From Nitrosotalea sp. (GTDB lineage Archaea > Thermoproteota > Nitrososphaeria > Nitrososphaerales > Nitrosopumilaceae): a stretch of 32,000 nucleotides of DNA. A program made the position numbers and the translations under genes. Shown piece after piece: positions 3,386 through 30,654 of the stretch. Position 1 is the first letter of the stretch; every line of letters begins with the position of its first letter. The notes beneath the pieces were generated by a model. The model was not told the DNA's origin. It did no database searches and was given only the letters and a program-made list of their open reading frames with translations. The stretch lies in NCBI GenBank assembly GCA_050749405.1, contig JBOGRD010000006.1, positions 60,892 through 92,891 of the forward strand, in the 5' to 3' direction.

Positions 3386-3391
3386 CTTTCA

Positions 3392-4593: not shown

Positions 4594-4594
4594 T

Positions 4595-5512: not shown

Positions 5513-5547
5513 ATACAAAACCAATTCTGTCTATAATTAATCTATTT

Positions 5548-12405: not shown

Positions 12406-12409
12406 GACA

Positions 12410-12510
12410 GGTCACAGTCCGCTACCATTTTTCTCCACTACTGCCTTGTCTTTTGGCAAAGTCGCAACAAACCTACAACCCTGAGAGATTAACGTCTCCG
12501 CTTCGTCAAA
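12410..12510 (-). pseudogene. Remnant of a second integrase gene (last ~30 codons only)
   Basis: The reverse strand translates to DEAETLISQGCRFVATLPKDKAVV, against LDQAETLISQGWRFVATLPKDKAVV* at the end of the 7430..8047 integrase. The original stop is mutated (TAG to GAG) and an upstream in-frame stop lies at 12524-12526. Confidence 0.7.
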
Positions 12511-12578
12511 TATTCCACAATTCCACTAGACCTCATCTGGCTTTGGATGGTAAGACTCATGCGGAGAAGTATGTGTAA
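12504..12578 (+). pseudogene. Possible C-terminal fragment of an rve/DDE-type transposase
   Basis: The tail of ORF 12288..12578 reads IFHNSTRPHLALDGKTHAEKYV*. This resembles the Y-N-x-x-R-P-H-x-x-L-x-x-x-T-P ending of retroviral-integrase-fold transposases; compare HYNFVKPHMGLQNRTPAQK in the 24572 and 27421 genes. Confidence 0.3.
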
Positions 12579-12636
12579 AAATTATAGGCGATAACAAGTG
12601 GCTCACATTGATACAAAATGTCAGTAGGAGAGAAGC

Positions 12637-12753
12637 TTGATTCATCAATGCCCTTTATGTGGAATCAGAATGAATCTTGATTATGATTACCCGTTCAAGT
12701 ATTTTTGGTGTGATGATTGTAGGATCAAAGTTACTAGATATTTGACTAGATGA
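12637..12753 (+). CDS. Mini zinc-ribbon ORF (38 aa, TTG start), possibly a gene fragment
   Basis: (L)IHQCPLCGIRMNLDYDYPFKYFWCDDCRIKVTRYLTR*. The CPxC...CxxC spacing and the CP[LF]C[GN]IRM string match the N-terminus of ORF 29663..29968. Confidence 0.25.
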   Translation: MIHQCPLCGIRMNLDYDYPFKYFWCDDCRIKVTRYLTR

Positions 12754-12805
12754 AACACTATTGATGATAAATGTAATTCATTAACCTAAGGACTACCATA
12801 TCCTT

Positions 12806-12997
12806 ATGCTTGATTTAAGTCAGAGTCTTATTGTAAGAGTTGTTATTACCACCGCAATCCTCTCAATAATTTCCTACTTTGTGATTCGGAAGAATGTAGT
12901 ATCACCAGACCGATTAAAATGGGCTATTCCAGCCCTCTTTGTTGTCTTTGGAATCTCGATACTAATCCAAATTCTGTATGTCCTCAGCACAAAATAA
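12806..12997 (+). CDS. Small two-helix membrane protein, hypothetical
   Basis: 63-aa ORF with two hydrophobic segments. No other support. Confidence 0.3.
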   Translation: MLDLSQSLIVRVVITTAILSIISYFVIRKNVVSPDRLKWAIPALFVVFGISILIQILYVLSTK

Positions 12998-13138
12998 TTA
13001 TGCTTATTAAAAACCGATACCATACTGACAAGTTCAATTGGGTTCAGACTTGTAAGGATTCGAGTCAATACATAATTCGAGTCTTAAATTATGAATGATT
13101 CTATTTCATTGAATCATTTTGATAGAACAAAATCTAGA

Positions 13139-14473
13139 TTACGGAAGTGAAGGTGGAGTTGTTGCTCCAACCGGAGTTGCAGATGCAGTATTAGACGGTT
13201 CACTAGTTCCAACTGAATTAATTGCCGAGACACGATAAGTGTAGGTTGTCAGTGGAAGTACATTTGTGTCCGAATAAGTGGTTCCAGTTTTGCCAGTGTT
13301 TGCAACAAGAGTTGACCACGCATTTCCATTGTCAGTTGATCTCTCAATCATGTATCCTGTTATTGGAGTACCACCATTATCGCTTGGTGCATTCCAGCTT
13401 AGATTGATTTGTAAAAGATTAGCTGTTGCTGTCAAACCGGTTGGTGCAGAGGGAACAGTACTTCGACCGTCAATTACAGATACGTCTCCGGTATAAGCTT
13501 CCGGGCCTGTAGGATCGATCTCTGATGTATAGATCTTGTTTGTCATTGGATTGGCAGCAATTCTACCTGGATTCTTGGCAACTGATAAACTCTGTAATAC
13601 ACTGTTGGTGTTACCATCAATTACGGTCACTGTGTTACTTGTAAAGTCAGTCACGTAAATCTTGTTAGTATTTGGATTTACAGTAACACCGTTAGCACCG
13701 CTTCCAACTGATATTGTACCTACAATACTGTTGGTTGCGCCATCAACCACCTTCACGTCATTACTTGTGGATACGTAGATCAGGTTAGTATTTGGATTTA
13801 CAGTAACACCGTTAGCACCGCTTCCAACTGATATTGTACCTACAATACTGTTGGTTGCGCCATCAATTACAGTTAACATGCCTCCAGTGTCAGCAACGTA
13901 TATCCTATTTGTATTGGCATCTACTGCAACACCTTGAGGTTCAAAAGCTAATTGGACGGTAGATGCTATAGAATTTGTTGAACCATCTATTATTGAAAGA
14001 GCGCGAGTTCCACCACAACCACTGCCAATATTAGAAACATAGATCTTGTTGGTAACTGGATTTACGGCAATGTCTCCCGGTGCATAACTTGATGAAATTG
14101 AGGATACAACGGTATTTGTAGAACCATTTACTACATATATTTCGCAATTGTAATTCCCACCCACATATATCATATTTGTTGAGGGATTCACCCCTAATCC
14201 ATCGATGGCATTGAACACATCTATGTTCCTTACAACAGAATTTGTTAATCCGTTGATTACAGAAACGGTACCAGAATTGAAATTAGCAACGTAAATCAGA
14301 TTTGTATTAGAGTTTACATCTATACCCTCCGGATTTATTCCTACCACTACTGTAGCAACTACGGTATCTGCATAAGCGTTGTGTGAAATCATACCAATTG
14401 ATATTAGAAACATTGATGCAAAAACTACTGTTAGTATACGATTCTTACCGTTGCTACTTTTCAGTAGATTCAA
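13139..14473 (-). CDS. Secreted YVTN-family beta-propeller repeat protein with C-terminal fibronectin type III domain
   Basis: Signal-like N-terminus ILTVVFASMFLISIGMISHNAYA. About eight ~40-aa repeats of the form NPxTNxIYV.N...TVSVIDG.TNSV. C-terminal PSAPTGLTATA...LSWNAPSDNGGTPITGYMIERS...YTYRVSAINSVGTSEPS is a classic FN3 signature. Confidence 0.85.
   Translation of the reverse strand: MNLLKSSNGKNRILTVVFASMFLISIGMISHNAYADTVVATVVVGINPEGIDVNSNTNLIYVANFNSGTVSVINGLTNSVVRNIDVFNAIDGLGVNPSTNMIYVGGNYNCEIYVVNGSTNTVVSSISSSYAPGDIAVNPVTNKIYVSNIGSGCGGTRALSIIDGSTNSIASTVQLAFEPQGVAVDANTNRIYVADTGGMLTVIDGATNSIVGTISVGSGANGVTVNPNTNLIYVSTSNDVKVVDGATNSIVGTISVGSGANGVTVNPNTNKIYVTDFTSNTVTVIDGNTNSVLQSLSVAKNPGRIAANPMTNKIYTSEIDPTGPEAYTGDVSVIDGRSTVPSAPTGLTATANLLQINLSWNAPSDNGGTPITGYMIERSTDNGNAWSTLVANTGKTGTTYSDTNVLPLTTYTYRVSAINSVGTSEPSNTASATPVGATTPPSLP
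13664..13867. repeat. Intragenic tandem duplication: 84 bp identical at a 120-bp period (13664-13747 = 13784-13867)
   Basis: Direct comparison of the two stretches. It encodes the identical peptide VDGATNSIVGTISVGSGANGVTVNPNTN twice. Confidence 0.95.
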
Positions 14474-14786
14474 TGTGTGTATTCCAAGCTCAATACATAT
14501 CTCACTATGTTAAGAATTTCCTATAAGATCAGTACAGAAGTTTTGTAGAATTCAACTTTGCCAACAAATCATAACGTACGATATTACGTAATCATCGGGA
14601 GTTTTTACGAACAAAAGGGGGGCTTTGCCTTTTTTACTCTTTGTCTATGTACTCGTTTGCTGTTTAAAATAAAAAATTGGAGAGGGATTTGGTTTCACCC
14701 AAATCACCCTATGATTTTACGTAGCGGACAGGACCCTGTCTCAAGGATATGGGGACCGAAACACCACACGGTCCACTTTATAAAAA

Positions 14787-15194
14787 TCAAGTTACAGTTA
14801 TGTTAAATGTCGACACGGGTGCAAGCGGATCTATATCGCGTAAATTGTCCCAGACTAGTACCTGAATTTTGTACGTTCCGCTTGCATGTGGCGTCCAAGA
14901 AAGAGCCGCAGTAAGAGTTTGATTGGCGACAAGGGAACCTGTGGCATAATTTAGATCTGACGTTGCTCCCATAGAATCAATTATCTGAACAATGTATGCC
15001 CAGCCTACCTCCTTTTGGCTCACATTTTTCAGTGACGTTTGTAAGTTAAGTTGTTGGTCTACTACTGGAGAATTGATCACTTCACCAAGGGAATTAACTA
15101 TCTTAAAATCAGATACAGAAACTTCGTCATATCCATATGCTGAATTAATTCCAATCACTGCAAGGGCAAAAAGCAATACAAGAAGAAACTTCAT
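14787..15194 (-). CDS. Secreted protein, unknown function (Ig-like/beta-sandwich guess)
   Basis: The internal ATG at 15194 gives the signal peptide MKFLLVLLFALAVIGINSAYG. The longer track ORF (to 15335) would overlap the alba gene and its promoter. Confidence 0.65.
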   Translation of the reverse strand: MKFLLVLLFALAVIGINSAYGYDEVSVSDFKIVNSLGEVINSPVVDQQLNLQTSLKNVSQKEVGWAYIVQIIDSMGATSDLNYATGSLVANQTLTAALSWTPHASGTYKIQVLVWDNLRDIDPLAPVSTFNITVT

Positions 15195-22188: not shown

Positions 22189-22267
22189 CATAAGTTACAC
22201 TTTTCTGGATTTAGTTTCCCATATAGTTGGTTATGTACCATGATGAGCGTATTCAATATTCGATTTG

Positions 22268-22618
22268 TTATTTTTTGTCTTTTTGAATGGTTTTTCTATA
22301 TCCTATCTTGGTTCTCTTTTCTTGATTCCCGTGTTCTTTTCTTGTGGTGTCATATCTCTGTTTGTTAGGTAATTTGTCTATGGTCTTACCTAGATTATTA
22401 ATTGCAACAAGCGATAATTCTACCCATGAAGATATCAGTTCAGCATTCACAAACGAAGCTGCAATAGACTTGTAGAATGTTTTCACTAGTGGATCTGACT
22501 CGTGAGTTGATTCCTTTAGAAACGCTTCCTTCATACATTTGCAGTCCCTGCGCAAATCTTTTAGATTTGATAAAGTTTCTTCGTTTATGATTTGATTATG
22601 TGTAGACACCATTCTCAA
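22268..22618 (-). CDS. Small helical protein, unknown function; paralog of 22596..22967
   Basis: Third gene of the RHH-led operon. INNLGKTIDKLPNKQRYD aligns with LNDLSGAIEKLPKGVEFD of the upstream gene. Basic Lys/Arg-rich tail. Confidence 0.55.
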   Translation of the reverse strand: MRMVSTHNQIINEETLSNLKDLRRDCKCMKEAFLKESTHESDPLVKTFYKSIAASFVNAELISSWVELSLVAINNLGKTIDKLPNKQRYDTTRKEHGNQEKRTKIGYRKTIQKDKK

Positions 22619-22967
22619 TCATCCTCTTTTCAAAAGCCCGTGCCTTGTCATAGGCCTCTTTAATGGGTTCCAGTGTTTGCTTTACTCTTTCATTTGTTCT
22701 ATGTAACGCTTCCTTGAGATCATCAAATTCTACACCCTTTGGCAATTTTTCTATGGCACCAGATAAATCATTAAGATCTTGTAAATGACTAACGGTAAGA
22801 TCGTAGTGATAGCCTACAGAATCACAAAGAATGCCTAGTGCATACCATTGTATTTTCATATCGATATCGTTTTCTTCATCACCATACTGACGAAACATAT
22901 CAGAATGCTTACGTACTTTATCTCCTATGAATTTTATATTCTGTCTATATTCTATAGGATAAAACAT
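22596..22967 (-). CDS. Small helical protein, unknown function
   Basis: The start abuts the RHH stop (22968/22967) and the 3' end overlaps the next gene by 23 nt, indicating an operon. No recognisable catalytic motif. Confidence 0.6.
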   Translation of the reverse strand: MFYPIEYRQNIKFIGDKVRKHSDMFRQYGDEENDIDMKIQWYALGILCDSVGYHYDLTVSHLQDLNDLSGAIEKLPKGVEFDDLKEALHRTNERVKQTLEPIKEAYDKARAFEKRMIENGVYT

Positions 22968-23165
22968 CTATTCCTTCTCCCTCAATTCATTTTTGACTCT
23001 TTTTGGGTCTTCATCTTCTAACCATGTCTTTAACGCAATCTCTACTAATTGTGACAAATCAACATCTCTATCTATGGCATCCTTTTTTGCTTCCTTCCAT
23101 ATTGTAGGGTCTATCTTGATTGACGTTGTTTCTCTTTTTACAGTTGGATCCAACCTAATCCTCAT
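22968..23165 (-). CDS. Ribbon-helix-helix (CopG/Arc-like) DNA-binding protein
   Basis: TSIKIDPTIWKEAKKDAIDRDVDLSQLVEIALKTWL has the beta-strand/helix/helix pattern. It is clearly homologous to the 25817..25981 product (TSIKIKPSVWKKAKIEAITENKQLSELVEEALEAWF). Confidence 0.75.
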   Translation of the reverse strand: MRIRLDPTVKRETTSIKIDPTIWKEAKKDAIDRDVDLSQLVEIALKTWLEDEDPKRVKNELREKE

Positions 23166-23272
23166 AGGATCTTTATACTATTAGTATTATTTAAATTTTG
23201 TAGTATAGTTGCATGATGGATGTTTTGCTAAATAAAAGTGCGTAATCTAGTGGAGTCAACAACCAGATCATT

Positions 23273-23536
23273 ATGGGGAATATTAACAGGTGGTTATACT
23301 GTAATTACAAATATTGCAAGATCTTGATTGAACAAAGTTCGTGCATTTCACATCATTACCTACTGAAACAACCAATCGACTGTGTCAAAAATTACGTTTC
23401 AAAGAAAGATGCTCAATGTGGTGGAACTCTGAACTATGTAGTTTACGTTAAGGGAATATGTCGTTCTTATGGAAACAATGTGATGTTGGCTCCAATTGTA
23501 ATCCAATTAGATGAAGATAAGGACCAACCACTGTGA
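23273..23536 (+). CDS. Cys-rich hypothetical protein
   Basis: 87-aa ORF with 7 Cys. No recognisable motif; weak support. Confidence 0.25.
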   Translation: MGNINRWLYCNYKYCKILIEQSSCISHHYLLKQPIDCVKNYVSKKDAQCGGTLNYVVYVKGICRSYGNNVMLAPIVIQLDEDKDQPL

Positions 23537-23549
23537 AACAACCAAAATA

Positions 23550-23632
23550 AACACCCATAGATTAGACAGTACCCAAAAAATGATTTTGTGGGATCTAAGG
23601 GTGTTTTAAATGGGTGTTGAAATCGGGGGTGG
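23550..23632 (-). repeat. AACACCC-iteron element, copy 1 (reverse orientation)
   Basis: The reverse strand reads ccaccc-ccgat-ttcaacaccc-attta-aaacaccc...attttttggg...gggtgtt. GGGTGTT occurs at 23599-23605 and 23612-23618, with AACACCC at 23550-23556 forming a partial inverted partner. Confidence 0.7.
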
Positions 23633-23646
23633 TAACCGTCTGTATT

Positions 23647-24531
23647 CTAATCAGCGGGAATTGCATTTGATGGTAATGGGGTTGTAAGTTCTTTGTATCC
23701 AAGATAGGTCATTTTAAGTTCATCTGATTTAGAAACCAGAAGATAAAATGTTTGATCAGGATTGAATCCCATACAAGGAGTTAATTTAACATCTATTATT
23801 ACAATCCCTTGTTTTTCGAAATACGCTTTTGTTACTCCTCGTTCAGAATAGACCAAAGTAGTGTTAGCATAGGGCTTATCCCAAGGAGCATTACAACCCT
23901 TGGAATCAAATTCAAACCAAACTGGCTGTTCTGGATTGGTTATGTTAAGAGGAACCACTTGTCCTTCTACGTCTTTTTCATCTATTGCTTTGAATCCTAA
24001 TTCCATCATCTTTGATGCATCATTCTGCGGAACAAGAAAATAAAAAGTTAGAAATCCACACATGGAAATAGTGTCCGTCGTTATGCTTCCAGTATTTTTT
24101 ACTTGTAGTAATGTAATGCCATGATTCTTGGAATATTCCGCAATAAGTGTAGTATTATACACACTTTCGAGTAGAGTGCTAGTATCATTCGATCTTACTA
24201 ACTCACCTACCCAAGGTATGATTTTACAATTGTCATGTGACCTGACCGCCTCTGTAAACTCGAACCATGCAGTTTGATTCATCACTATTCCCCACCCACG
24301 TTCAACAAGTTTCTTTGCCGTATCAGGTTTTACACAAGCAGGAGAACCATCTAATGTTTTTATCACAAGCACAAATCCTGCTTTGCATTTTACATCAGAA
24401 GTAGATGTGCCATTTTTTAATTGCTTGAATGGTGAGAGTATTAATGTAGCATTTTGAGCAAATGAGAATGGTATTGTTGAAATTGATGAAAGTAAAATTA
24501 CGATAAAAAGCAAGCCATACCAATAGAACAT
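23647..24531 (-). CDS. Secreted protein, unknown function
   Basis: Signal-like N-terminus LLFIVILLSSISTIPFSFAQ. CKAGFVLVIKTLDGSPACVKPDTAKKLVERGWG is a module I recall seeing in secreted thaumarchaeal proteins (from memory, unverified). Confidence 0.7.
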   Translation of the reverse strand: MFYWYGLLFIVILLSSISTIPFSFAQNATLILSPFKQLKNGTSTSDVKCKAGFVLVIKTLDGSPACVKPDTAKKLVERGWGIVMNQTAWFEFTEAVRSHDNCKIIPWVGELVRSNDTSTLLESVYNTTLIAEYSKNHGITLLQVKNTGSITTDTISMCGFLTFYFLVPQNDASKMMELGFKAIDEKDVEGQVVPLNITNPEQPVWFEFDSKGCNAPWDKPYANTTLVYSERGVTKAYFEKQGIVIIDVKLTPCMGFNPDQTFYLLVSKSDELKMTYLGYKELTTPLPSNAIPAD

Positions 24532-24571
24532 TATTCCTTATAAAACACCAGAACTGAAAAGCTTTTGTATT

Positions 24572-25738
24572 TTATTTTTCTAAAGCAAACTGCAATAAAT
24601 CCATCCACTTTACTTTTTTATCTATTACACCTATTTTCTGTGCAGGCGTCCTATTCTGCAATCCCATGTGCGGTTTCACAAAATTATAATGTATCTTCAT
24701 CCCTTCTGGTATCTGGGTTTCCATTGACTTCCAGCCACGCTGTACCTTAATTCTTTCACGCTGAGTACCATTCATTCTCTCAATTCTGTTGTTGTTTGCA
24801 TGAGTTTTTCGTACTCCTTGTCTTGCCTTGTGCCAAGGCTTGTTATCAAAGACCTTTGGTATTACTGAACCATAGGCTCTCAAAGCATCTGTAGTAATGA
24901 TCTTTGGCTGTAATCCATGTGCATTCTTGATAGCCTCTTGGAATGCTTGAATTGCACCGTTGCCATCCCTCTGCTCTGACAGTTTTGAAGCCAAAAGATA
25001 ACGTGTTTTGAAATCCATGACATTCCAAAGGAAAGCCATGTTTGTCTTTTCCCTAATCTCAATACCATCCTTCATTTTTACAAAGACTTCATCGCAAGCC
25101 CATCTCTTGGACTCGGATTCTGGTATAGCCAAAGAATTTACGTATTGGGATATGATGGGTACATATTTCTTTATCCAGCCATAAACGGTAGTGAAATCAA
25201 GTTCCAGCCCAAAGTGGTCATTTACGCTTCTTGCTACTTTTCGAAGCGAGAGACCAGAGAAATAGAGGTCTAGTGTAAGCGTAATGAGTTTGGGATCGTA
25301 CTTTGACTTCTTTACAAGGCTTGGCTCTCTGAACTTGTGCAGACAGTCCTTGCACTTGAAAATCTGTTTTTCTGCGTTCTTGCCATAACGTATAGTTCTG
25401 ATTGAACCGCATTGATCACATTGAACTGAATCATCTGCAAAGACCTTTGGCTTTTCCTTGTTTTGTAAAAAGGTGTTAGTTGCAATCCAAAACTTCAATG
25501 CATAACCATGCTTGCATGTATCAATTTTCTTTTGGATGGAACACCTGTATGTATAATCAGGACAATCACAAGTAAATTTATTCTCAATTATCTTAACAGT
25601 ATATACGACATCTTTACCCGTCTGAGATGGCACGGTAAAACTGCCGTCCTCGTTCTCACGTATCGCTGAGGTTTCAGTTATTGCCATGCCTCTCATCATT
25701 CGGGTTTCCGATTGGTTGTTTGGTTCTTGTAACACCAT
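24572..25738 (-). CDS. Transposase-like protein: SWIM zinc finger + zinc ribbon + HTH + IS6-type DDE domain (copy 1)
   Basis: SWIM CxCxnCxH motif (FTCDCPDYTYRCSIQKKIDTCKH). Zinc ribbon CDQCGS...CKDCLHKF. DDE triad candidates WACDEVFVKM, IITTDALRAYG and NNNRIERMNGTQRERIK. C-terminal HYNFVKPHMGLQNRTPAQK. Confidence 0.8.
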   Translation of the reverse strand: MVLQEPNNQSETRMMRGMAITETSAIRENEDGSFTVPSQTGKDVVYTVKIIENKFTCDCPDYTYRCSIQKKIDTCKHGYALKFWIATNTFLQNKEKPKVFADDSVQCDQCGSIRTIRYGKNAEKQIFKCKDCLHKFREPSLVKKSKYDPKLITLTLDLYFSGLSLRKVARSVNDHFGLELDFTTVYGWIKKYVPIISQYVNSLAIPESESKRWACDEVFVKMKDGIEIREKTNMAFLWNVMDFKTRYLLASKLSEQRDGNGAIQAFQEAIKNAHGLQPKIITTDALRAYGSVIPKVFDNKPWHKARQGVRKTHANNNRIERMNGTQRERIKVQRGWKSMETQIPEGMKIHYNFVKPHMGLQNRTPAQKIGVIDKKVKWMDLLQFALEK

Positions 25739-25816
25739 ACCACTAGTGTTATACTATGCACTATTTAACTCTATACCAAACAGGTTATATACCACAGGTG
25801 GTATTTTGTAATTGTA

Positions 25817-25981
25817 ATGAAAGCAACAACAGAAGAATTGAGAGAATCTACTTCAATCAAAATTAAACCAAGTGTTTGGAAAAAAGCAAAGATAGAGGCT
25901 ATCACTGAAAATAAACAACTATCAGAACTTGTAGAAGAAGCACTAGAGGCATGGTTTGATTCAAAGAGGAAGAATAAGTGA
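25817..25981 (+). CDS. Ribbon-helix-helix DNA-binding protein (54 aa; below the ORF-track size cutoff)
   Basis: Hand translation: MKATTEELRESTSIKIKPSVWKKAKIEAITENKQLSELVEEALEAWFDSKRKNK*. Homolog of 22968..23165. Its start lies 78 bp from the divergent transposase-like gene. Confidence 0.7.
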   Translation: MKATTEELRESTSIKIKPSVWKKAKIEAITENKQLSELVEEALEAWFDSKRKNK

Positions 25982-26558
25982 CTTGGTTAGACTAAAACCC
26001 CTTATAGAAATAGGTTCTGTAATAAGTTCAATCGCTATTTTGTTCTCCATGATGACCGTCATACAGTTTTTTCCTGCAATTCCTTTGGAAAAAGCACTTA
26101 TTTTCTCTGTTTCAATAATTCCACTCGTACCTTATGTTATCTCTGGTAAAATTGAAACTTCCATCCAAAAACTGCGTTTACGCCTGAAAAAACCGAATGA
26201 GCGTGAAATATTAGAATCACGGTTATCAGAGCAGAAACAGGAATTATTACAGAAATTAGATGTTGTTACAAAAGAACTAGAAATGATCCAGTCAGAAGAC
26301 GCTCAAATGGCAAGACTTGCTTATAAAGTTGTCAATGAAGGAAGTTCAAAATTTGCTACCAAAGAGGAAATCAAGGAACTAGCTACTAAAAAGGACATAA
26401 AGGAATTGGCAGGAATGATTTATGATCTTGATAAAAAGACGAAAAACAAGCAGGAATCCGCCACCCAAAATTCAACACCCGAAGAAAACACCCGTAATAA
26501 TCAACAGAACAATTTTTTGGGTTTTGTTGATTCAAGGGGTGTTCTAAAAGGGTGTTGA
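25956..26558 (+). CDS. Membrane-anchored coiled-coil protein, unknown function
   Basis: TTG start overlapping the RHH gene. Two N-terminal TM helices, then heptad-like charged repeats (ATKEEIKELATKKDIKELAGMI). The 3' end overlaps AACACCC element copy 2. Confidence 0.55.
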   Translation: MIQRGRISDLVRLKPLIEIGSVISSIAILFSMMTVIQFFPAIPLEKALIFSVSIIPLVPYVISGKIETSIQKLRLRLKKPNEREILESRLSEQKQELLQKLDVVTKELEMIQSEDAQMARLAYKVVNEGSSKFATKEEIKELATKKDIKELAGMIYDLDKKTKNKQESATQNSTPEENTRNNQQNNFLGFVDSRGVLKGC

Positions 26559-26570
26559 AAAACGGGTGTT
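26461..26570 (+). repeat. AACACCC-iteron element, copy 2: complete imperfect palindrome
   Basis: AACACCC at 26474-26480 and 26487-26493. GGGTGTT at 26537-26543, 26550-26556 and 26564-26570. Arms ttcaacaccc...aacaccc...aatcaaca mirror each other around aattttttgg (about 26511-26520). Confidence 0.8.
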
Positions 26571-26659
26571 GTGTTGACGGCAGAACTACCAAAAGTTTGG
26601 TAGTTTGTTTAAAAACTCAACAAACCCATTCTTAAGGAAAGAAAAGCAGTTTTATTAAG

Positions 26660-26794
26660 ATGAAGCGTATAAATAGACTAGGGAAAGAGGGTGGAGAGGA
26701 AATGACAAAAGAAAGACAAGAAATCTTAGATAAAGTAGTAGATAAACTGTTAAAGGAAAACAAGGTTATATTCGAAAGACTTGACGAAATTTAG
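26660..26794 (+). CDS. Putative antitoxin (44 aa) for the downstream Doc toxin
   Basis: Hand translation: MKRINRLGKEGGEEMTKERQEILDKVVDKLLKENKVIFERLDEI*. Its stop codon directly abuts the doc ATG (TAGATG). Confidence 0.5.
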   Translation: MKRINRLGKEGGEEMTKERQEILDKVVDKLLKENKVIFERLDEI

Positions 26795-27418
26795 ATGGTA
26801 AAACTATCGTCAGATGAGATTATCAGCATTCATGATAAAATTACTGACAGATTTAAAATCACAAAAGGAGTGATCAATAAGAGTATTTTGGACGCAATAG
26901 TTGAACGACCAGAATTACAATTAGAAGATCATAACTATGTTTATGACAGTGTGTTTTCAAAAGCGGCTGCTATCCTAGAGGGAATAATTCGCTGGCATCC
27001 TTTTGCAGATGGAAATAAACGAACTGCATTAGCTACATCCGTATATTATTTAAAATTAGAAGGATATGCTATCGCATTACCCTTAAGTGCAGTTCGTTTT
27101 ACCGTCAATATTGCAAATAACGATAAAACTGATAGTATAAGCACTCAAAAACTAATCGAAGAAATTACAACTTGGTTTAGAGCACATTCTGACCGCAATA
27201 AACTCTTGTTACTCGGAAAGTTGGGACTCTACATTGGCATTCCATACAGATTTTATCAATTTCTAATCAAACTTGGTTTTCTAAATTATGTCTACAAGAA
27301 AGTTGCTTATTGGATGGCTTTTGATATATACCCAGAATATGCAAAAGAAATGAGTGAAATAGCTAAATTCATTCAAGAAACAGTAGATACTAGTTTGACT
27401 GCGGTTTTTGGGAAATAA
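26795..27418 (+). CDS. doc: Fic/Doc-family protein (death-on-curing toxin-like) with an ~80-aa C-terminal extension
   Basis: HPFADGNKRTA at 26996-27028 matches the Doc variant of the Fic motif (HxFx[DE]GNKRxA). Residues after about 125 (LLLLGKLGLYIGIPYRFYQFLIKLGFLNYVY...) are hydrophobic/aromatic and lie beyond the length I recall for canonical Doc (about 125 aa). Confidence 0.8.
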   Translation: MVKLSSDEIISIHDKITDRFKITKGVINKSILDAIVERPELQLEDHNYVYDSVFSKAAAILEGIIRWHPFADGNKRTALATSVYYLKLEGYAIALPLSAVRFTVNIANNDKTDSISTQKLIEEITTWFRAHSDRNKLLLLGKLGLYIGIPYRFYQFLIKLGFLNYVYKKVAYWMAFDIYPEYAKEMSEIAKFIQETVDTSLTAVFGK

Positions 27419-27420
27419 TT

Positions 27421-28581
27421 TCAAACTTCAATAGAATTTCTCGTAGCAAGTTCTAACAAATCCATCCATTTGACTTTCCTTTTGATAACTCCGATCTTCT
27501 GAGCAGGTGTCCTATTCTGTAACCCCATATGTGGTTTTACAAAGTTATAATGAATCTTCATCCCTTCTGGAATTGGAGTTTCCATTGACTTCCAGCCTCT
27601 TTGTACCTTAATTCTCTCTCGTTGAGTACCATTCATTCTTTCAATCCTATTGTTATTTGCATGAGTCTTTCTTACTCCTTGTCGTGCCTTGTGCCAAGGC
27701 TTGTTATCAAAGACCTTTGGTATTACTGAACCATAGGCTCTCAAAGCATCTGTAGTAATGATTTTTGGCTGTAGACCATGAGCATTCTTAATTGCTTCTT
27801 GAAATGCCTGAATTGCACCGTTGCCATCCCTCTGCTCTGACAGTTTTGAAGCCAAAAGATAGCGTGTCTTGAAATCCATGACATTCCAAAGAAAAGCCAT
27901 GTTTGTCTTATCCCTAATCTCAATTCCATCTTTCATTTTTACAAAGACCTCATCGCAAGCCCATCTCTTGGATTCCGATTCTGGTATAGCCAAAGAGTTT
28001 ACGTATTGGGATATGATAGGCACGTACTTCTTTATCCAGCCATAAACGGTAGTGAAATCAAGTTCTAGCCCAAAGTGGTCATTTACGCTTCTTGCTACCT
28101 TTCGAAGCGAAAGACCAGAGAAATAGAGATCAAGTGTAAGTGTAATAAGTTTAGGATCATACTTTGACTTTTTGACAAGGCTTGGCTCTCTGAATTTGTG
28201 CATACAGTCCTTGCACTTGAAAACCTGCTTTTCTGCGTTCTTGCCATAGCGTATGGTTCTGATTGAACCGCATTGATCACACTGGACTGAATCATCTGCA
28301 AAGACCTTTGGCTTTTCCTTGTTTTGCAAAAATGTATTAGTTGCAATCCAAAATTTCAAGGCGTAACCATGTTTACAAGTTTCAACTTTTCTATATGTAA
28401 AATCGGGACAGTTACAGACAAATTTATTTTCGATTATCTTAACGGTATATGCGACATCTTTACCCGTCTGAGATGGCACAGCAAAACTGCCGTCCTCATT
28501 CTCTCGTATTGTTGAGGTTTCAGTTATTGCCATGCCTTTCATCATTCGGGTTTCCGATTGGTTTGTTTCTTTGTTGAACAT
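27421..28581 (-). CDS. Transposase-like protein: SWIM zinc finger + zinc ribbon + HTH + IS6-type DDE domain (copy 2)
   Basis: Near-identical protein to 24572..25738 (about 4 substitutions over the ~300-aa core). The SWIM loop is shorter (FVCNCPDFTYRKVETCKH). The ATG at 28581 (MFNKETNQSETRMM) aligns with the copy 1 start; the track start at 28635 adds an implausible extension. Confidence 0.8.
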   Translation of the reverse strand: MFNKETNQSETRMMKGMAITETSTIRENEDGSFAVPSQTGKDVAYTVKIIENKFVCNCPDFTYRKVETCKHGYALKFWIATNTFLQNKEKPKVFADDSVQCDQCGSIRTIRYGKNAEKQVFKCKDCMHKFREPSLVKKSKYDPKLITLTLDLYFSGLSLRKVARSVNDHFGLELDFTTVYGWIKKYVPIISQYVNSLAIPESESKRWACDEVFVKMKDGIEIRDKTNMAFLWNVMDFKTRYLLASKLSEQRDGNGAIQAFQEAIKNAHGLQPKIITTDALRAYGSVIPKVFDNKPWHKARQGVRKTHANNNRIERMNGTQRERIKVQRGWKSMETPIPEGMKIHYNFVKPHMGLQNRTPAQKIGVIKRKVKWMDLLELATRNSIEV

Positions 28582-28685
28582 GTTTCCCACATACACACAT
28601 ACACACAATATTATAAAAACATTGTGGATAACCACATATTACATATAACCACAATTCTTATATTAATGGTAAATCTAATGTAATT

Positions 28686-28844
28686 ATGGGTAGAATAGAT
28701 GCAATAATTCCTGACGAATTAGAAAAGAAATTACGGATGAAGGCAGTAGAAAGATTCGGTGGAAAGAAAGGCAGTCTAACAGAAGCGTTAGAAGAAGCGA
28801 TTGAGAGATGGGTAAAAGAACAAAAGGAATTGAGCAAGAAATGA
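28686..28844 (+). CDS. Ribbon-helix-helix (CopG-like) protein (52 aa; below the ORF-track cutoff)
   Basis: Hand translation: MGRIDAIIPDELEKKLRMKAVERFGGKKGSLTEALEEAIERWVKEQKELSKK*. Its start lies 104 bp from the divergent transposase-like gene. Confidence 0.7.
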   Translation: MGRIDAIIPDELEKKLRMKAVERFGGKKGSLTEALEEAIERWVKEQKELSKK

Positions 28845-29254
28845 GAAAATATGACAATGAATTTAAAACAGACAAAAAAGTCATAGATAAAGAGGAAATT
28901 ATTCGAAATTTCATTCATGGATTATTACATGGTGAAATTAAAGTTGACCTAACTTTGAGAGATGGAACACGAAACCGAAATACGTTCTATGATAATCTTG
29001 AGCAATTTATCTTAGATTATTTGGATGAAGATAAACCTGAACAAGAAAAAAAGACCATTGCTAAGAATTTATTCAAATTGATAACAACTATGAGAGTAGT
29101 GGATAGAATAACTACCAAAACTGAGACAAGTTCTCAAGAAATTCAGTCCATTAATGAAAGAATAGGCAATATGGATGCAAGATTGAACTCTACTAATAAA
29201 CTACTTGATGAGATTACAAAAATGTTCCCAAAGGGGAATGATCCTGAACCCTGA
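28841..29254 (+). CDS. Small helical/coiled-coil protein, unknown function
   Basis: ATGA overlap with the RHH stop; ATG at 28841 rather than the track start at 28808. C-terminal IQSINERIGNMDARLNSTNKLLDEITKMFPKG is paralogous to the next gene. Confidence 0.6.
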   Translation: MRKYDNEFKTDKKVIDKEEIIRNFIHGLLHGEIKVDLTLRDGTRNRNTFYDNLEQFILDYLDEDKPEQEKKTIAKNLFKLITTMRVVDRITTKTETSSQEIQSINERIGNMDARLNSTNKLLDEITKMFPKGNDPEP

Positions 29255-29256
29255 AT

Positions 29257-29676
29257 ATGACTGAAATATCTGAAAAACCTTCAGAACTTTTCACTCGTGA
29301 ATTTAGACATGAAGTAGTCAATAAATTCATCAAGGAAGTTGCAGAAGGTGCAATTCGAATTATTACTCCTATGAAGTTTGACGATTATGAATATAGAAAG
29401 ATACTTTCTAATTTCTATAGCAAATTTACTAGTAGTGTAGAAGATTATCTTTCAGAGAAAATAAAGGGGGATACGCTGGTAAATTTAGAAGCAGTCATCT
29501 TTGCTGACATTATAACATTACGCACTGCTGGGTTAATTGAAGAGGATAAGTATTCTATACCAGAAGTAAAACAGAAAGTATCCAGTCTAGAAGCAAAGAT
29601 AGAATCAACTAATAACCTTCTATCTGATGTCTTATCAATTCTAATGGAGTTATTGAGACGACTTGACAAGAAGTAA
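29257..29676 (+). CDS. Small helical/coiled-coil protein, paralog of 28841..29254
   Basis: Starts 2 nt after the previous stop. VKQKVSSLEAKIESTNNLLSDVLSILMELL aligns with the C-terminal heptad region of the preceding gene (shared STN-LL core). Confidence 0.6.
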   Translation: MTEISEKPSELFTREFRHEVVNKFIKEVAEGAIRIITPMKFDDYEYRKILSNFYSKFTSSVEDYLSEKIKGDTLVNLEAVIFADIITLRTAGLIEEDKYSIPEVKQKVSSLEAKIESTNNLLSDVLSILMELLRRLDKK

Positions 29677-29968
29677 AGTATTATGCCCTTTCTGCAATAT
29701 TCGGATGTATGAGGTTATTGATGAGGAATATCCTAGGCTACGAACTTATCTATGCTATGAATGTGGATTTCATGCAGATACAATTTTGATGGAACAAAAG
29801 AGCATGTATCTGCATTATCAGGAGTTATTTGCTCATTTTAAGGATGTATTAAAGCCAAAGAAACTACTACCACCCAAATTTCAACACCCAGATAAAACAC
29901 CCGAAGACTCAACAGAACACAAAAAATTGATAAAGCCAAGTTTAACTGAAATTTTTTGCAAACTATGA
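29663..29968 (+). CDS. Zinc-ribbon protein, unknown function
   Basis: TTG start overlapping the previous gene by 14 nt. CPFCNIRM...CYECGF four-Cys ribbon. The 3' part overlaps AACACCC element copy 3. Confidence 0.5.
   Translation: MTRSKVLCPFCNIRMYEVIDEEYPRLRTYLCYECGFHADTILMEQKSMYLHYQELFAHFKDVLKPKKLLPPKFQHPDKTPEDSTEHKKLIKPSLTEIFCKL
29870..29925 (+). repeat. AACACCC-iteron element, copy 3 (left arm only)
   Basis: ccacccaaatttcaacacccagataaaacacccgaagactcaacagaaca, against copy 2 ccacccaaaattcaacacccgaagaaaacacccgtaataatcaacagaaca. No GGGTGTT arm follows. Confidence 0.75.
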
Positions 29969-30064
29969 CACATAAAGACGTGATTTTAATGTAGCATTCT
30001 TGACTTTTTCATTGATTTTACTTCACATGGCTATAGATAAAAAATTCCTGCAACGAGTACAAGT

Positions 30065-30274
30065 ATGTACCAATTCGTACAGCCGCAATCAGACAAACCT
30101 AACTACACTGCAGGTCAGACGTGGGGGGCTTTGAAGAAGGCATGGCGAGGATACAAGATTGCCAAAGTGCAAACTGATCATGCCAAAATGTCAGAATATG
30201 CCAAGAAGATAAGGACCCTCCAGAATGACTTGGGAATAAAACAGGCAGAATTTCCAGGACTAAACCTGCATTAG
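30065..30274 (+). CDS. Small hypothetical protein
   Basis: 69-aa ORF with balanced, non-repetitive composition and no overlapping alternative. No motif recognised. Confidence 0.4.
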   Translation: MYQFVQPQSDKPNYTAGQTWGALKKAWRGYKIAKVQTDHAKMSEYAKKIRTLQNDLGIKQAEFPGLNLH

Positions 30275-30374
30275 TTAGAATTCCCTTCTTTTTAGAGGGA
30301 GTTTGCAGTGAGAACTATTGGCAAAATTTACAATTTTGGGATTAGTGTTGATTTTCAATCAAATTGTGAAAAGG

Positions 30375-30448
30375 CGGGTTCGCGGGGATTCGGACCCCGG
30401 ACAGCCGGATTAAAAGTCCGGTACTCTACCTGGCTGAGCTACGAACCC
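30375..30448 (-). tRNA. tRNA-Lys (anticodon UUU)
   Basis: Reverse complement: GGGTTCG-TA-GCTC-AGCCAGGTA-GAGT-A-CCGGA-CTTTTAA-TCCGG-CTGTC-CGGGG-TCCGAAT-CCCCG-CGAACCC-G. All stems pair perfectly. The T loop reads TCCGAAT (C at position 55). Confidence 0.85.
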
Positions 30449-30545: not shown

Positions 30546-30654
30546 GCCCTTGTAGTATAGAGAGGATGTGGGGTAAAATCCAATCCTTGTATAGCCCGGT
30601 CTAGAATGGGGCCCTGTCACGGCCTCGACGCGAGTTCAAATCCCGCCAAGGGCG
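30546..30654 (+). tRNA. tRNA-Asp (anticodon GUC) candidate with a ~34-nt non-canonical intron in the D-arm region
   Basis: Acceptor GCCCTTG (30546-52) pairs with CAAGGGC (30647-53). Anticodon arm GGGCC-CTGTCAC-GGCCT. T arm GCGAG-TTCAAAT-CCCGC (one A-C mismatch). A canonical D loop AGCCCGGTCTA appears only if about 34 nt (roughly 30556-30594; the junction is ambiguous because TATAG is repeated) are removed. Confidence 0.55.

What the first reader, a model, noticed from the sequence alone, without database searches (positions are those of the whole stretch)
22189..30374. 8-kb accessory island between argH and tRNA-Lys built from three RHH-led small-gene operons: candidate undescribed mobile or defence-like system
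- No housekeeping function is recognisable between argH (ends 22188) and about 30064.
- Module A, on the minus strand, is RHH 22968..23165, then a 123-aa gene, then a 116-aa gene.
- Module B is a SWIM-DDE gene (minus) divergent from RHH 25817..25981, followed by a TM coiled-coil protein.
- Module C is a second SWIM-DDE gene (minus) divergent from RHH 28686..28844, followed by 137-aa, 139-aa and zinc-ribbon genes.
- A Doc toxin pair and a secreted protein are interspersed.
- The RHH proteins of A and B are clear homologs.
- The genes within each module are translationally coupled through overlapping or abutting stops and starts.
- The gene repertoire (RHH, tiny coiled-coil proteins, zinc ribbons) is typical of archaeal viruses and plasmids. 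However, no capsid, replicase or tyrosine integrase is visible.
- The recurrent pairing of an RHH regulator with a zinc-finger DDE protein and coiled-coil effectors is not a system I can name.
Basis: inference. Interest (0 to 1): 0.75.

Follow-up and report, generated by a model that had tools for sequence, protein, structure and literature searches.

The report
Pile-up of three archaeal IS6-like transposons
The 8-kb "island" after argH in this Nitrosotalea genome is three transposons of one IS6-like family inserted end to end, each carrying a transposase, a small back-to-back repressor-type gene and a few unknown small proteins, so it is mobile DNA of a known general kind but of a variant I could not find described.

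Summary
Comparison with 80 related genomes shows that argH is normally followed within about 150 nt by a conserved 69-aa gene (window 30065-30274). The window therefore carries about 7.7 kb of inserted DNA, roughly 22200-29927. The insert ends before that core gene, not at tRNA-Lys.

The three "RHH-led modules" are three copies of one transposon family:
- E0 (about 22203-23573) is old and has lost its transposase.
- E1 is 23582-26511.
- E2 is 26520-29919.

Each unit has about 50-bp terminal inverted repeats with an IS6-type tip (GGTTCTGTTGA) and three heptamer repeats. Thirteen further complete elements elsewhere each carry a perfect 8-bp target duplication. E1+E2 are flanked by CAAAAAAT on both sides.

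The "SWIM-DDE" gene is the transposase. About 20 related loci also have a small RHH- or AbrB-type gene transcribed divergently from it, with element-specific operator-like repeats in between. This gene is most likely a repressor.

The downstream small proteins belong to new families with no known homologue or fold match. Module A stays under purifying selection without a transposase.

New copies insert exactly 8 bp from the tip of a resident copy. There is no evidence for defence, a virus or a plasmid.

Verdict: a new variant of a known kind, of moderate interest.

The parts
22203..23573 (.). E0: an old transposon copy shared by a Nitrosotalea clade. It retains the RHH-led operon, its transposase is lost, and its ends are degenerate. 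The left tip position is approximate; the right tip ends ...GACAGTACC at 23573.
   Evidence: Module A lies at the same place in L001, L002, L003, L006, L007, L008, L010, L015, L023, L046 and L059. L001 keeps a + strand transposase 3' fragment between the RHH gene and the degenerate end. L004 keeps only the two ends. L073/L081 hold a complete element of the same layout at this site.
22268..22618 (-). A3: 116-aa helical protein, a paralogue of A2, third gene of the E0 operon.
   Evidence: ORF. An iterated local profile joins the A2 and A3 families. dN/dS is 0.16-0.23 and the ORF is intact in all 10 genomes compared. No Pfam, NCBIfam, PHROG or PADLOC hit.
22596..22967 (-). A2: 123-aa helical protein with an ..I(E/D)KLP.. 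motif, second gene of the E0 operon.
   Evidence: 23 homologues, all Nitrosotalea hypothetical proteins. 28% identical to the 127-aa protein of the complete L073 element. dN/dS 0.10-0.37, with one pair at 0.57.
22968..23165 (-). RHH-A: 65-aa ribbon-helix-helix-type protein, first gene of the E0 operon.
   Evidence: Sub-threshold matches to several RHH/CopG families. 54% identical to RHH-B. dN/dS 0.04-0.11, as low as argH.
23166..23573 (.). Decayed remainder of E0. It holds the former divergent promoter, the remains of the transposase region with the non-conserved ORF 23273-23536, and the degenerate right terminal repeat at 23524-23573.
   Evidence: Collinearity with L002, L003 and L015 breaks at about 23373-23381. 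The alignment with L001 shows a transposase fragment there that this window lacks. The motif is matched with 3 mismatches at 23534.
23574..23581 (.). Left copy of the 8-bp target duplication CAAAAAAT. It is also the 8-bp spacer between the E0 tip and the E1 tip.
   Evidence: The uninterrupted sequence in L002/L003/L004 reads ...ACAGAACC AAAAAAATTGATAAAG.
23582..26511 (-). E1: a complete 2930-bp transposon. Order: TIR, secreted passenger gene, transposase (-), RHH-B (+), TM coiled-coil gene, TIR.
   Evidence: The ends are aligned and the motif hits are. The region is absent from L002, L003, L015 and L046. The same arrangement is found in a second assembly, L128.
23582..23631 (+). E1 terminal inverted repeat on the transposase-3' side: GATTTTGTGGGATC followed by GGGTGTT-type heptamers.
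   Evidence: (D4, I2).
23647..24531 (-). Passenger gene of E1: 294-aa protein with an N-terminal signal or anchor segment and a WING-49 domain.
   Evidence: NCBIfam NF058652, E 2.1e-22. No Pfam hit. L001 has different sequence in this slot.
24572..25738 (-). Transposase 1, 388 aa. Domains: a SWIM-like CxC..CxH motif, an IS1/IS1595-type Zn ribbon, an HTH and a DDE domain of IS6/IS240 type.
   Evidence: Pfam DDE_Tnp_IS240, 3.6e-14 and above the gathering score. NCBIfam IS6, 2.6e-30 at 105.6 bits, below the cut-off of 125. NF050000 Zn domain, 4e-8. SWIM, E 0.23 and 0.016. More than 731 homologues of 370-400 aa in Nitrososphaeria.
25739..25816 (.). Divergent promoter and operator region of E1, with three (G/T)TGGTAT repeats.
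   Evidence: Other elements carry their own repeats or palindromes at the same place.
25817..25981 (+). RHH-B: 54-aa ribbon-helix-helix-type protein, the putative repressor.
   Evidence: (Arc-like repressor, E 0.0047).
25956..26558 (+). B2: 200-aa protein with two hydrophobic segments and a coiled coil. Its ORF reads through the E1 terminal repeat and the junction, and stops inside E2.
   Evidence: No family hit. No local homologue.
26461..26511 (+). E1 terminal inverted repeat on the RHH side: CCACCC..TTCAACACCC..AAAACACCC..TCAACAGAACA.
   Evidence: (D3, I4).
26512..26519 (.). 8-bp spacer ATTTTTTG between the E1 and E2 tips. It is the exact reverse complement of the flanking duplication.
26520..29919 (-). 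E2: a complete 3400-bp transposon. Order: TIR, antitoxin-like ORF plus Doc as passengers, transposase (-), RHH-C (+), C2, C3, Zn-ribbon gene, TIR.
   Evidence: 59-nt inverted repeat I1. The ends are aligned. Homology with relatives resumes at 29911-29921.
26520..26569 (+). E2 terminal inverted repeat on the transposase-3' side: GGTTTTGTTGATTC followed by 3 x GGGTGTT.
   Evidence: It is 94% identical to the repeat at L001 12321-12371.
26660..27418 (+). Passenger pair of E2: a 44-aa ORF abutting a 207-aa Doc/Fic-family toxin gene.
   Evidence: Fic/DOC 9.6e-13. TIGR01550 2.7e-16. The small ORF has no family hit.
27421..28635 (-). Transposase 2. The likely start is the ATG at 28581, which gives 386 aa. 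It is 93% identical in protein to transposase 1.
28582..28685 (.). Divergent promoter and operator region of E2: TGTGGTTAT twice, inside the palindrome ATTGTGG..CCACAAT.
28686..28844 (+). RHH-C: 52-aa ribbon-helix-helix-type protein of a second subtype (MGRIDAxIPDELEKKLR).
   Evidence: RHH_6, E 0.0032. Near-identical N-termini stand divergent from transposases in L082 and L090.
28808..29676 (+). C2 (28808 or 28841 to 29254) and C3 (29257-29676): paralogous helical proteins of about 135 aa that belong to a new family.
   Evidence: They are paralogues (E 1.7e-8). A profile search finds 55 clusters, all of about 130-140 aa. In 4 of 5 contexts they follow a gene of about 53 aa that is divergent from a SWIM-DDE transposase. 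The AlphaFold2 model has pLDDT 88. No PDB, BFVD, Pfam or PDB-sequence match.
29663..29968 (+). C4: 101-aa Zn-ribbon protein. Its ORF reads through the terminal repeat and stops 49 nt outside the element.
   Evidence: Zn-ribbon genes in the same position read through the repeat in L085 and L086. There are weak hits to remnants in L038 and L046.
29870..29919 (+). E2 terminal inverted repeat on the RHH side.
29920..29927 (.). Right copy of the 8-bp target duplication CAAAAAAT. Core DNA follows (TGATAAAGCC...).

Best explanation
The island is a pile-up of three unit transposons of one IS6-like family that is widespread in Nitrososphaeria (thaumarchaea).

Shown from sequence:
- Each unit is 2.3-4.4 kb long.
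- Each is bounded by 45-53-bp terminal inverted repeats. The tip (GGTTCTGTTGA) fits the IS6-family consensus, and three direct heptamers lie inside each repeat.
- Each makes an 8-bp target duplication.
- Each encodes a 370-400-aa transposase (SWIM-like finger, Zn ribbon, HTH, DDE).
- A 47-80-aa RHH- or AbrB-type gene is transcribed divergently from the transposase, 43-183 nt away, and leads an operon of one to three small coiled-coil or Zn-ribbon genes.
- A variable passenger slot follows the transposase. Here it holds a secreted WING-49 protein in E1 and a Doc toxin pair in E2.
- E0 landed first and lost its transposase, but kept its RHH operon under purifying selection.
- E1 and E2 are specific to this strain.
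- New copies insert into the 8 bp that abut the tip of a resident copy. This produces head-to-head repeat junctions with an exact 8-bp spacer.

Inferred:
- The heptamers are binding sites for the N-terminal fingers of the transposase.
- The RHH/AbrB protein binds the element-specific repeats between the two promoters. It represses both its own operon and the transposase, as the Arc protein does in IS605 elements.
- The downstream small proteins are selfish or host-useful cargo, such as an addiction-like or membrane-acting function, and are not needed for the chemistry of transposition.
For: Synteny:
- In most Nitrosotalea genomes argH is followed within about 150 nt by the 69-aa gene, the tRNAs and the inositol-monophosphatase gene (IMPase).
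- Close relatives are collinear with the window up to about 23373-23381 and again from 29911-29921.

Transposase:
- Pfam IS240 DDE domain, 3.6e-14. NCBIfam IS6, 2.6e-30. IS1/IS1595 Zn domain.
- More than 731 homologues, some annotated as IS6 family transposase.

Ends:
- The motif occurs 5 times in the window against 0.03 expected.
- Terminal repeats with perfect 8-bp duplications are found in L073, L082, L083 (53-bp perfect repeats), L085, L086, L090, L091, L093, L100, L116-118, L119, L120 and L130, with a weaker case in L129.
- The unoccupied target TAAAATAT is seen in N. devanaterra.
- The window's E1+E2 are flanked by CAAAAAAT on both sides.

Regulator:
- A divergent RHH, AbrB or Zn-ribbon gene is present in about 18 of 20 metagenome loci, and in independently called genes.
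- The intergenic repeats differ between elements.
- Arc represses divergent promoters in IS605 (bioRxiv 10.64898/2026.09.24.754181).

Cargo:
- The C2/C3 family is linked to RHH plus transposase in 4 of 5 contexts.
- Module A has dN/dS of 0.04-0.37 without a transposase.

End-targeting:
- All 5 tip-spacer-tip hits have a spacer of exactly 8 nt, against about 0.1 expected. Four of them are full repeat junctions.
Against: - No experiment supports any of this. Mobility is inferred from repeats, duplications and presence/absence.
- The transposase scores below NCBI's curated IS6 cut-off (105.6 against 125 bits).
- The element differs from IS6 in size, repeat length and gene content (PMC7986276, PMC6807381).
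- The RHH, AbrB and SWIM calls are all sub-threshold.
- E1 and E2 taken singly lack direct target duplications. The inner 8-mer is the reverse complement of the outer pair, which needs an extra step to explain.
- The left end of E0 is only approximate.
- The coiled-coil and Zn-ribbon genes of different elements share an architecture but no detectable sequence similarity. A common function is therefore not shown.
- Retention of module A without a transposase shows that at least this cargo is not merely a transposition factor. It does not say what the cargo does.
Confidence: 0.85

Rival explanations
1. The RHH-led operons are toxin-antitoxin-like addiction modules, or another defence or abortive-infection cargo, carried by the transposons. 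The RHH/AbrB protein would be the antitoxin and autorepressor, and the downstream helical, membrane or Zn-ribbon proteins would be the toxic or effector partners. This concerns what the cargo does. It is compatible with the transposon anatomy.
For: - The gene order is small DNA-binding gene first, with overlapping stop and start codons.
- The DNA-binding fold is interchangeable between RHH and AbrB/MazE in front of varied partners.
- Module A is kept intact under purifying selection after loss of the transposase in 9 of 10 genomes. Addiction or host benefit would predict this.
- Tn3-family transposons carry toxin-antitoxin pairs next to their transposase promoters (PMC7157771).
- E2 also carries a bona fide Doc toxin.
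Against: - No partner protein matches any toxin or defence family in Pfam, NCBIfam or PADLOC.
- C3 has no fold match.
- The RHH proteins are 50-65 aa long, which is little more than the DNA-binding domain. They resemble Arc or CopG repressors more than antitoxins with a toxin-binding tail.
- Several operons have three or four genes.
Confidence: 0.3
2. The coiled-coil and Zn-ribbon proteins are accessory transposition factors. They could act in target choice next to resident ends, in transpososome assembly or in cointegrate resolution, in the way IstB, TnsC or MuB assist their transposases.
For: - The trio of regulator, coiled-coil protein of 150-190 aa and Zn-ribbon protein of about 90 aa recurs in elements whose transposases are only about 50% identical: E2, L085, L086, L094 and L102.
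- The family shows end-targeted insertion.
- The last gene reads through the terminal repeat in six elements.
Against: - Many elements with perfect repeats and duplications lack such genes or carry unrelated ones, for example L083, L090, L100 and L116.
- There is no sequence similarity between the trios.
- No ATPase or nuclease domain is present.
- Module A persists under selection without any transposase.
Confidence: 0.15
3. E1 plus E2 is an IS26-style pseudo-compound transposon. Two directly oriented IS copies would bracket the cargo, and the whole would have arrived as one 6.3-kb unit from another replicon.
For: - The two transposase genes are in direct orientation.
- A single perfect 8-bp duplication flanks the pair, and neither unit alone has direct duplications.
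- IS6-family compound transposons always have direct IS copies (PMC7986276).
Against: - There is no minimal IS. Similarity between the copies is confined to the coding sequence at 88.7%.
- The terminal repeats enclose the cargo of each unit separately.
- L001, at 96% identity, has at the same junction an element with an E2-like repeat directly next to E0. This suggests stepwise insertions.
- The inner spacer, being the exact reverse complement of the outer duplication, would then be a coincidence.
Confidence: 0.25
4. The region is the remnant of an integrated virus or plasmid that entered at tRNA-Lys. That was the first reader's flavour of 'archaeal virus/plasmid repertoire'.
For: - Small RHH, coiled-coil and Zn-ribbon genes are common in archaeal viruses and plasmids (own knowledge).
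- Relatives do carry integrase-type elements at this tRNA-Lys, as in L002.
Against: - tRNA-Lys is intact, and the conserved 69-aa gene separates it from the insert.
- There is no integrase, replication or capsid gene.
- The borders are transposon ends with an 8-bp duplication.
- There are no relatives in 2.9 million viral contigs.
- There is no BFVD fold match.
Confidence: 0.03

Closest known systems
IS6 (IS6/IS26) family insertion sequences, especially the long-transposase and archaeal groups
   Same: - The DDE transposase matches the IS240/IS6 profiles.
- The terminal repeat tip has GG and a cTGTt core (GGTTCTGTT).
- The target duplication is 8 bp.
- Copies tend to be found next to one another in direct orientation. 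Insertion next to a resident copy recalls IS26 targeted integration (PMC7986276).
   Different: - IS6 elements are 0.8 kb (1.2-1.5 kb for the Clostridial long forms) with one ORF and 15-20-bp repeats. Only one listed member carries a passenger gene (PMC7986276).
- The elements here are 2.3-4.4 kb with 45-53-bp repeats that hold three heptamers.
- The transposase has a SWIM-like extension as well as the Zn ribbon.
- A conserved divergent regulator gene and 2-7 further genes lie inside the repeats.
- The transposase score is below NCBI's IS6 cut-off.
- Harmer and Hall argue that archaeal 'IS6' elements should not be in the family at all (PMC6807381).
Arc (RHH) repressor of IS605-family transposons
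   Same: - A very small RHH gene lies inside a transposon, next to the mobility genes.
- Repeated or inverted motifs lie between divergent promoters.
- The proposed role is to keep the element's own genes repressed (bioRxiv 10.64898/2026.09.24.754181).
   Different: - The transposon class differs: HUH TnpA plus TnpB there, a DDE transposase here.
- The hosts there are bacterial.
- Here the regulator can be RHH, AbrB-like or a Zn ribbon, and it leads an operon of further small genes.
- Binding is not tested here.
Tn3-family transposons carrying toxin-antitoxin pairs beside the transposase and resolvase promoters
   Same: - These are unit transposons with long terminal repeats and passenger genes.
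- A small-gene pair, led by a DNA-binding protein, sits immediately next to the transposase promoter (PMC7157771).
   Different: - The transposase family differs, and so does the 5-bp duplication.
- No resolvase or res site is present here.
- The partners here match no known toxin.
IS30, IS911 and IS26 style targeting of resident element ends
   Same: New copies land at a fixed distance from the end of a resident copy, which gives abutted inverted ends (own knowledge for IS30; PMC7986276 for IS911 and IS26).
   Different: - Here the spacer is exactly the 8-bp target duplication.
- The elements involved can differ in cargo.
- No circle or dimer intermediate is implied.

Membership tests
IS6 / IS26 family | DDE transposase that matches the family profile | tested here: inconclusive
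   Pfam DDE_Tnp_IS240 scores 53.5 bits, above the gathering score of 27. NCBIfam transpos_IS6 gives E 2.6e-30, but 105.6 bits is below the curated cut-off of 125.
IS6 / IS26 family | 8-bp target site duplication | tested here: met
   Perfect 8-bp duplications flank 13 complete elements, with a weaker case in L129. CAAAAAAT flanks E1+E2 in the window.
IS6 / IS26 family | Terminal inverted repeats with a GG tip and a cTGTt core | tested here: met
   The tips read G(G/A)TT(C/T)TGT(T/C) in all elements. The consensus is taken from PMC7986276.
IS6 / IS26 family | Compact IS of about 0.8-1.5 kb with a single ORF and 15-20-bp repeats | tested here: not met
   The elements are 2.3-4.4 kb, hold 3-8 genes and have 45-53-bp repeats with internal heptamers.
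IS6 / IS26 family | Replicative cointegrate formation and targeted conservative integration | not testable with these tools
   The only indirect hint is the set of tip-8 bp-tip junctions.
Type II toxin-antitoxin module (for the RHH-led operons) | A small DNA-binding antitoxin gene overlapping a downstream partner gene | tested here: met
   The coordinates overlap or abut in modules A, B and C.
Type II toxin-antitoxin module (for the RHH-led operons) | Partner belongs to a recognised toxin family | tested here: not met
   A2, A3, B2, C2, C3 and C4 have no hit in Pfam, NCBIfam or PADLOC. The fold search for C3 was negative.
Type II toxin-antitoxin module (for the RHH-led operons) | Toxicity that the cognate antitoxin neutralises | not testable with these tools
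   This requires expression experiments.
Known anti-virus defence systems (PADLOC-DB) | At least one signature protein of a catalogued system | tested here: not met
   Only the Doc protein gives weak matches, to candidate systems PDC-S23 and similar. Nine other proteins give nothing.
tRNA-integrating element with tyrosine integrase | An integrase gene and direct repeats of the tRNA end at both borders | tested here: not met
   There is no integrase. tRNA-Lys is intact, and the nearest element end (29919) lies about 450 nt from the tRNA, beyond a core gene. Relatives such as L002 do have an element of this type at the tRNA.
IS26-type pseudo-compound transposon | Two directly oriented, near-identical IS copies bracketing cargo, with one duplication flanking the whole | tested here: inconclusive
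   Direct orientation and a single flanking duplication are met. Near-identity of the copies is not met: 88.7% identity, over the coding sequence only. Each unit also has its own repeat pair.
Transposon-encoded RHH repressor (Arc of IS605 type) | RHH fold | tested here: inconclusive
   Only sub-threshold hits to RHH_1, RHH_4, RHH_6, CopG and the Arc-like PHROG, at E 0.003-0.07. The structure-prediction quota went to C3.
Transposon-encoded RHH repressor (Arc of IS605 type) | Binding sites overlapping the divergent promoters, and repression of them | not testable with these tools
   Element-specific repeats and palindromes are present in the intergenic regions. Binding and repression need ChIP, EMSA and reporter assays.

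The most novel reading that the evidence does not exclude
This is an undescribed family of archaeal unit transposons. Its members home to the 8 bp next to the end of a resident copy and so build tandem arrays. Its conserved regulator-led operon of small coiled-coil, membrane or Zn-ribbon proteins, all in new families, would be a new kind of self-preserving module (addiction-like or defence-like) that outlives the transposase. Module A would be the example: it has stayed under purifying selection across Nitrosotalea species.
Probability: 0.25. Interest if true: 0.6.

Novelty: new variant of a known kind. Interest (0 to 1): 0.42.

Why it matters
For annotation, what looks like an unexplained island is explained. 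About 730 or more "DDE-type integrase / transposase-like" genes of ammonia-oxidising archaea can now be read as parts of bounded 2-4-kb transposons with definable ends.

For mobile-element biology, the finding:
- extends the IS6-like group to gene-carrying units with a built-in regulator;
- adds a sequence-based case of end-targeted insertion at an exact 8-bp spacing;
- gives a DDE-transposon counterpart to the recently reported Arc repressor of IS605 elements.

For gene discovery, it flags several small protein families (A2/A3, C2/C3, and the read-through Zn ribbons). They travel with these transposons, and at least one of them is kept by selection after the transposase is gone. Their function is unknown and can be tested.

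It does not open a long-standing question, and nothing here contradicts current understanding.

Tried and rejected
- **Defence system.** PADLOC scans of ten proteins matched only Doc. Rejected as an explanation of the architecture.
- **Virus or plasmid origin.** PHROGs gave only transposase families and one weak Arc-like hit. The viral contig scan found no relatives of the transposase. The BFVD fold search for C3 found nothing below E 0.2.
- **Integration at tRNA-Lys.** Rejected by synteny and by the borders.
- **Core region.** Rejected for E1 and E2. Partly true for module A, which a clade shares.
- **A single superfamily for all the coiled-coil cargo proteins.** The iterated A2/A3 profile does not reach C2/C3 or the proteins of other loci. 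The weak A2 to L086_191 similarity (E 0.056 in a tiny database) was not confirmed.
- **Known structures or families for C2/C3.** No PDB sequence match, no Pfam match and no Foldseek PDB match (best E 1.2, TM 0.2-0.3).
- **A-tract target specificity as the explanation of the repeated CAAAAAAT.** Rejected, because the duplications of the other elements are unrelated sequences.
- **Non-coding RNA in the island.** Rfam finds none.

Full report
**What is there.** The window comes from a Nitrosotalea genome. Its argH product is 98% identical to that of a Nitrosotalea MAG and 85% identical to N. devanaterra.
- The two large minus-strand genes hit the IS240/IS6 DDE domain (Pfam 3.6e-14; NCBIfam IS6 2.6e-30, below the curated cut-off). 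They also carry an IS1/IS1595-type zinc ribbon and a CxC...CxH motif with a weak SWIM match.
- Doc is confirmed.
- The 294-aa secreted protein carries a WING-49 domain.
- The three small leader proteins give only sub-threshold, though mutually consistent, ribbon-helix-helix matches. RHH-A and RHH-B are 54% identical.
- None of the other small proteins matches Pfam, NCBIfam, PHROGs or PADLOC.

**Borders from synteny.** I fetched 80 argH loci from species-representative genomes and located the window's proteins in them.
- The common order is a 106-aa gene, argH, a conserved 69-aa gene (window 30065-30274), tRNAs and the inositol-monophosphatase gene (IMPase). The argH-to-69-aa gap is only about 150 nt. 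The insert therefore ends before the 69-aa gene, not at tRNA-Lys.
- Module A is present at the same place in at least 11 Nitrosotalea genomes.
- Modules B and C, Doc and the secreted protein are in none of the 80 loci.
- The nearest relatives (89-96% nucleotide identity) are collinear up to 23373-23381 and resume at 29911-29921.

**The repeated unit is a transposon.**
- A motif, TTCAACACCC-N5-AAACACCC, occurs five times in the window against 0.03 expected. It forms two palindromic sites and one half site.
- In N. bavarica (L073/L081) a complete element lies between argH and the 69-aa gene. Its order is inverted repeat, 133-aa gene, 127-aa gene (28% identical to A2), RHH, then divergently a 384-aa transposase, a 313-aa membrane passenger and the second inverted repeat. 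It is flanked by TAAAATAT on both sides. N. devanaterra shows the unoccupied TAAAATAT.
- Loci recovered with the transposase from metagenomes and assemblies gave twelve more complete elements of 2.3-4.4 kb, plus a weaker case in L129. Their tips read G(G/A)TT(C/T)TGT, their repeats are 45-53 bp with three internal heptamers, and each has a perfect 8-bp duplication. L083 has 53-bp perfect repeats.
- The tip and the 8-bp duplication fit the IS6-family description. The size, the repeat length and the gene content do not (PMC7986276, PMC6807381).

**Layout in the window.**

| Feature | Coordinates |
|---|---|
| E0 (left tip approximate) | about 22203-23573 |
| CAAAAAAT (left duplication, E0-E1 spacer) | 23574-23581 |
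| E1 | 23582-26511 |
| ATTTTTTG (E1-E2 spacer) | 26512-26519 |
| E2 | 26520-29919 |
| CAAAAAAT (right duplication) | 29920-29927 |

- E0 is module A plus decayed DNA. The closely related L001 still has a transposase 3' fragment there, and L004 keeps only the two ends.
- The two transposase genes are 88.7% identical, but only within the coding sequence. There is therefore no minimal IS inside the units.

In about 20 loci with transposases 40-78% identical to those of the window, the gene nearest the transposase start is almost always a small DNA-binding-type gene on the other strand, 43-183 nt away and 47-80 aa long.
- About nine are RHH, seven are AbrB/MazE-like and two are small Zn ribbons. 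Independent gene calls show the same pattern.
- A trio of regulator, coiled-coil protein of 150-190 aa and Zn-ribbon protein of about 90 aa recurs in E2, L085, L086, L094 and L102.
- The intergenic regions carry repeats or palindromes that differ from element to element. This is what one expects of cognate operators.
- An RHH protein (Arc) of IS605 transposons was recently shown to bind and repress divergent transposon promoters (bioRxiv 10.64898/2026.09.24.754181). I take that as the best functional model for the leader gene.

**The cargo.**
- A2 and A3 are paralogues found only in Nitrosotalea.
- C2 and C3 are paralogues. An exhaustive profile search finds 55 clusters of proteins of about 135 aa. 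In four of the five contexts I looked up, they follow a gene of about 53 aa that is divergent from a SWIM-DDE transposase.
- A confident model of C3 (pLDDT 88) is a small helical domain plus a 38-residue C-terminal helix. It has no match in the PDB or in viral structure sets.
- Across ten genomes that have lost the transposase, module A is intact in nine. Its dN/dS values are 0.04-0.11 for RHH, 0.10-0.37 for A2 (one pair at 0.57) and 0.16-0.23 for A3, against 0.04-0.15 for argH. At least this cargo therefore has a function that does not depend on transposition. An addiction-like or host-useful role is plausible but untested.

**End-targeting.** I scanned all fetched DNA (1.43 Mb) for a right tip, 4-14 nt, then a left tip.
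- This gave five hits, all with a spacer of exactly 8 nt, against about 0.1 expected at that offset.
- Four of them are full repeat-to-repeat junctions: two in the window, one in L120 and one in L095.
- In L120 the spacer equals the other copy of the element's duplication. New copies thus insert into the 8 bp abutting a resident tip. This explains the pile-up at this locus.
- It may also explain why the argH downstream site holds different versions of the element in different lineages (L073, L129, L130).

**Open points.**
- The inner 8-mer of the window is the exact reverse complement of the outer duplication. A flip of the 8-bp loop between the abutted inverted repeats after stepwise insertions would explain it. 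L001 shows an E2-like end directly next to E0. Arrival of E1+E2 as one composite is the alternative. I could not decide between the two.
- The last gene of the regulator-led operon reads through the terminal repeat and stops outside the element in six elements. I have no explanation for this.

**Verdict.** It is not a defence system, a virus or a tRNA-linked island. It is a variant of a known kind, namely IS6-like transposons that carry a regulator and passengers. I found no description of this variant in the literature I could search, and I could not query ISfinder.

Noticed in passing
L002 13192-17995; also L015, L035, L038, L051, L057 and L058 between the 69-aa gene and the IMPase gene: Relatives carry a separate insertion of 2-6 kb at tRNA-Lys. 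In L002 it is flanked by a 20-nt repeat equal to window 30367-30386 (the 3' end of tRNA-Lys). It holds split ORFs with a tyrosine-recombinase-like C-terminal motif. The window's tRNA-Lys is unoccupied.
   Followed up: partly
window 26512-26519 versus 23574-23581 and 29920-29927: The 8-bp spacer between E1 and E2 (ATTTTTTG) is the exact reverse complement of the duplication that flanks the pair (CAAAAAAT). This may be a loop flip in the quasi-palindrome formed by the abutted repeats.
   Followed up: partly
window 25956-26558 and 29663-29968; L073 11421-11822; L085 88-348; L086 4735-5028; L120 2939-3175: The last gene of the regulator-led operon reads through the terminal inverted repeat and finds its stop codon outside the element. 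Its C-terminus therefore depends on the insertion site.
   Followed up: partly
L073 ~11506-14799, L129 ~2130-5667, L130 3943-8354: The first few nucleotides after the argH stop codon hold elements with different regulators and cargo in different Nitrosotalea lineages: RHH+127+133, MazE-like+146, and 48+133. L073 and L129 use the same target, (C)TAAAATA(T). This points either to module swapping within a resident element or to repeated hits at one site.
   Followed up: partly
L004 ~11500-11950: E0 is reduced to its two ends only, about 440 nt between argH and the 69-aa gene. This is a MITE-like internal deletion derivative.
   Followed up: no
window 12288-12578 (+): A weak fragment resembles the C-terminus of a DDE transposase (tblastn E 0.004 at 12459-12569). 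It is probably another decayed insertion sequence.
   Followed up: no
window 9440-11209 (+) and 13139-14473 (-): A 589-aa ORF that looks secreted sits in a patch of GC 0.49 against a background of about 0.38. A 444-aa repeat protein lies nearby. These may be horizontally acquired surface proteins.
   Followed up: no
window 30584-30653 (+): ARAGORN calls a 70-nt tRNA-Asp here, but the Rfam tRNA model does not reach its gathering score at this position. The call is doubtful.
   Followed up: no
L053 6719-7102 (-): A more distant Nitrosopumilaceae genome (argH 76% identical) has a Zn-ribbon gene directly after argH. It is homologous to the Zn-ribbon cargo of element L094 (E 9.5e-17). This suggests that the site is used beyond Nitrosotalea.
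   Followed up: no
L082 1-165 and 2918-3122; L086 4142-4345; L092 5834-6057; L009, L038, L040, L046 and L048 after argH: Short fragments of the transposase 3' end (about 100-200 nt) recur next to full copies and next to argH. This is consistent with repeated insertions beside resident ends followed by deletions.
   Followed up: partly
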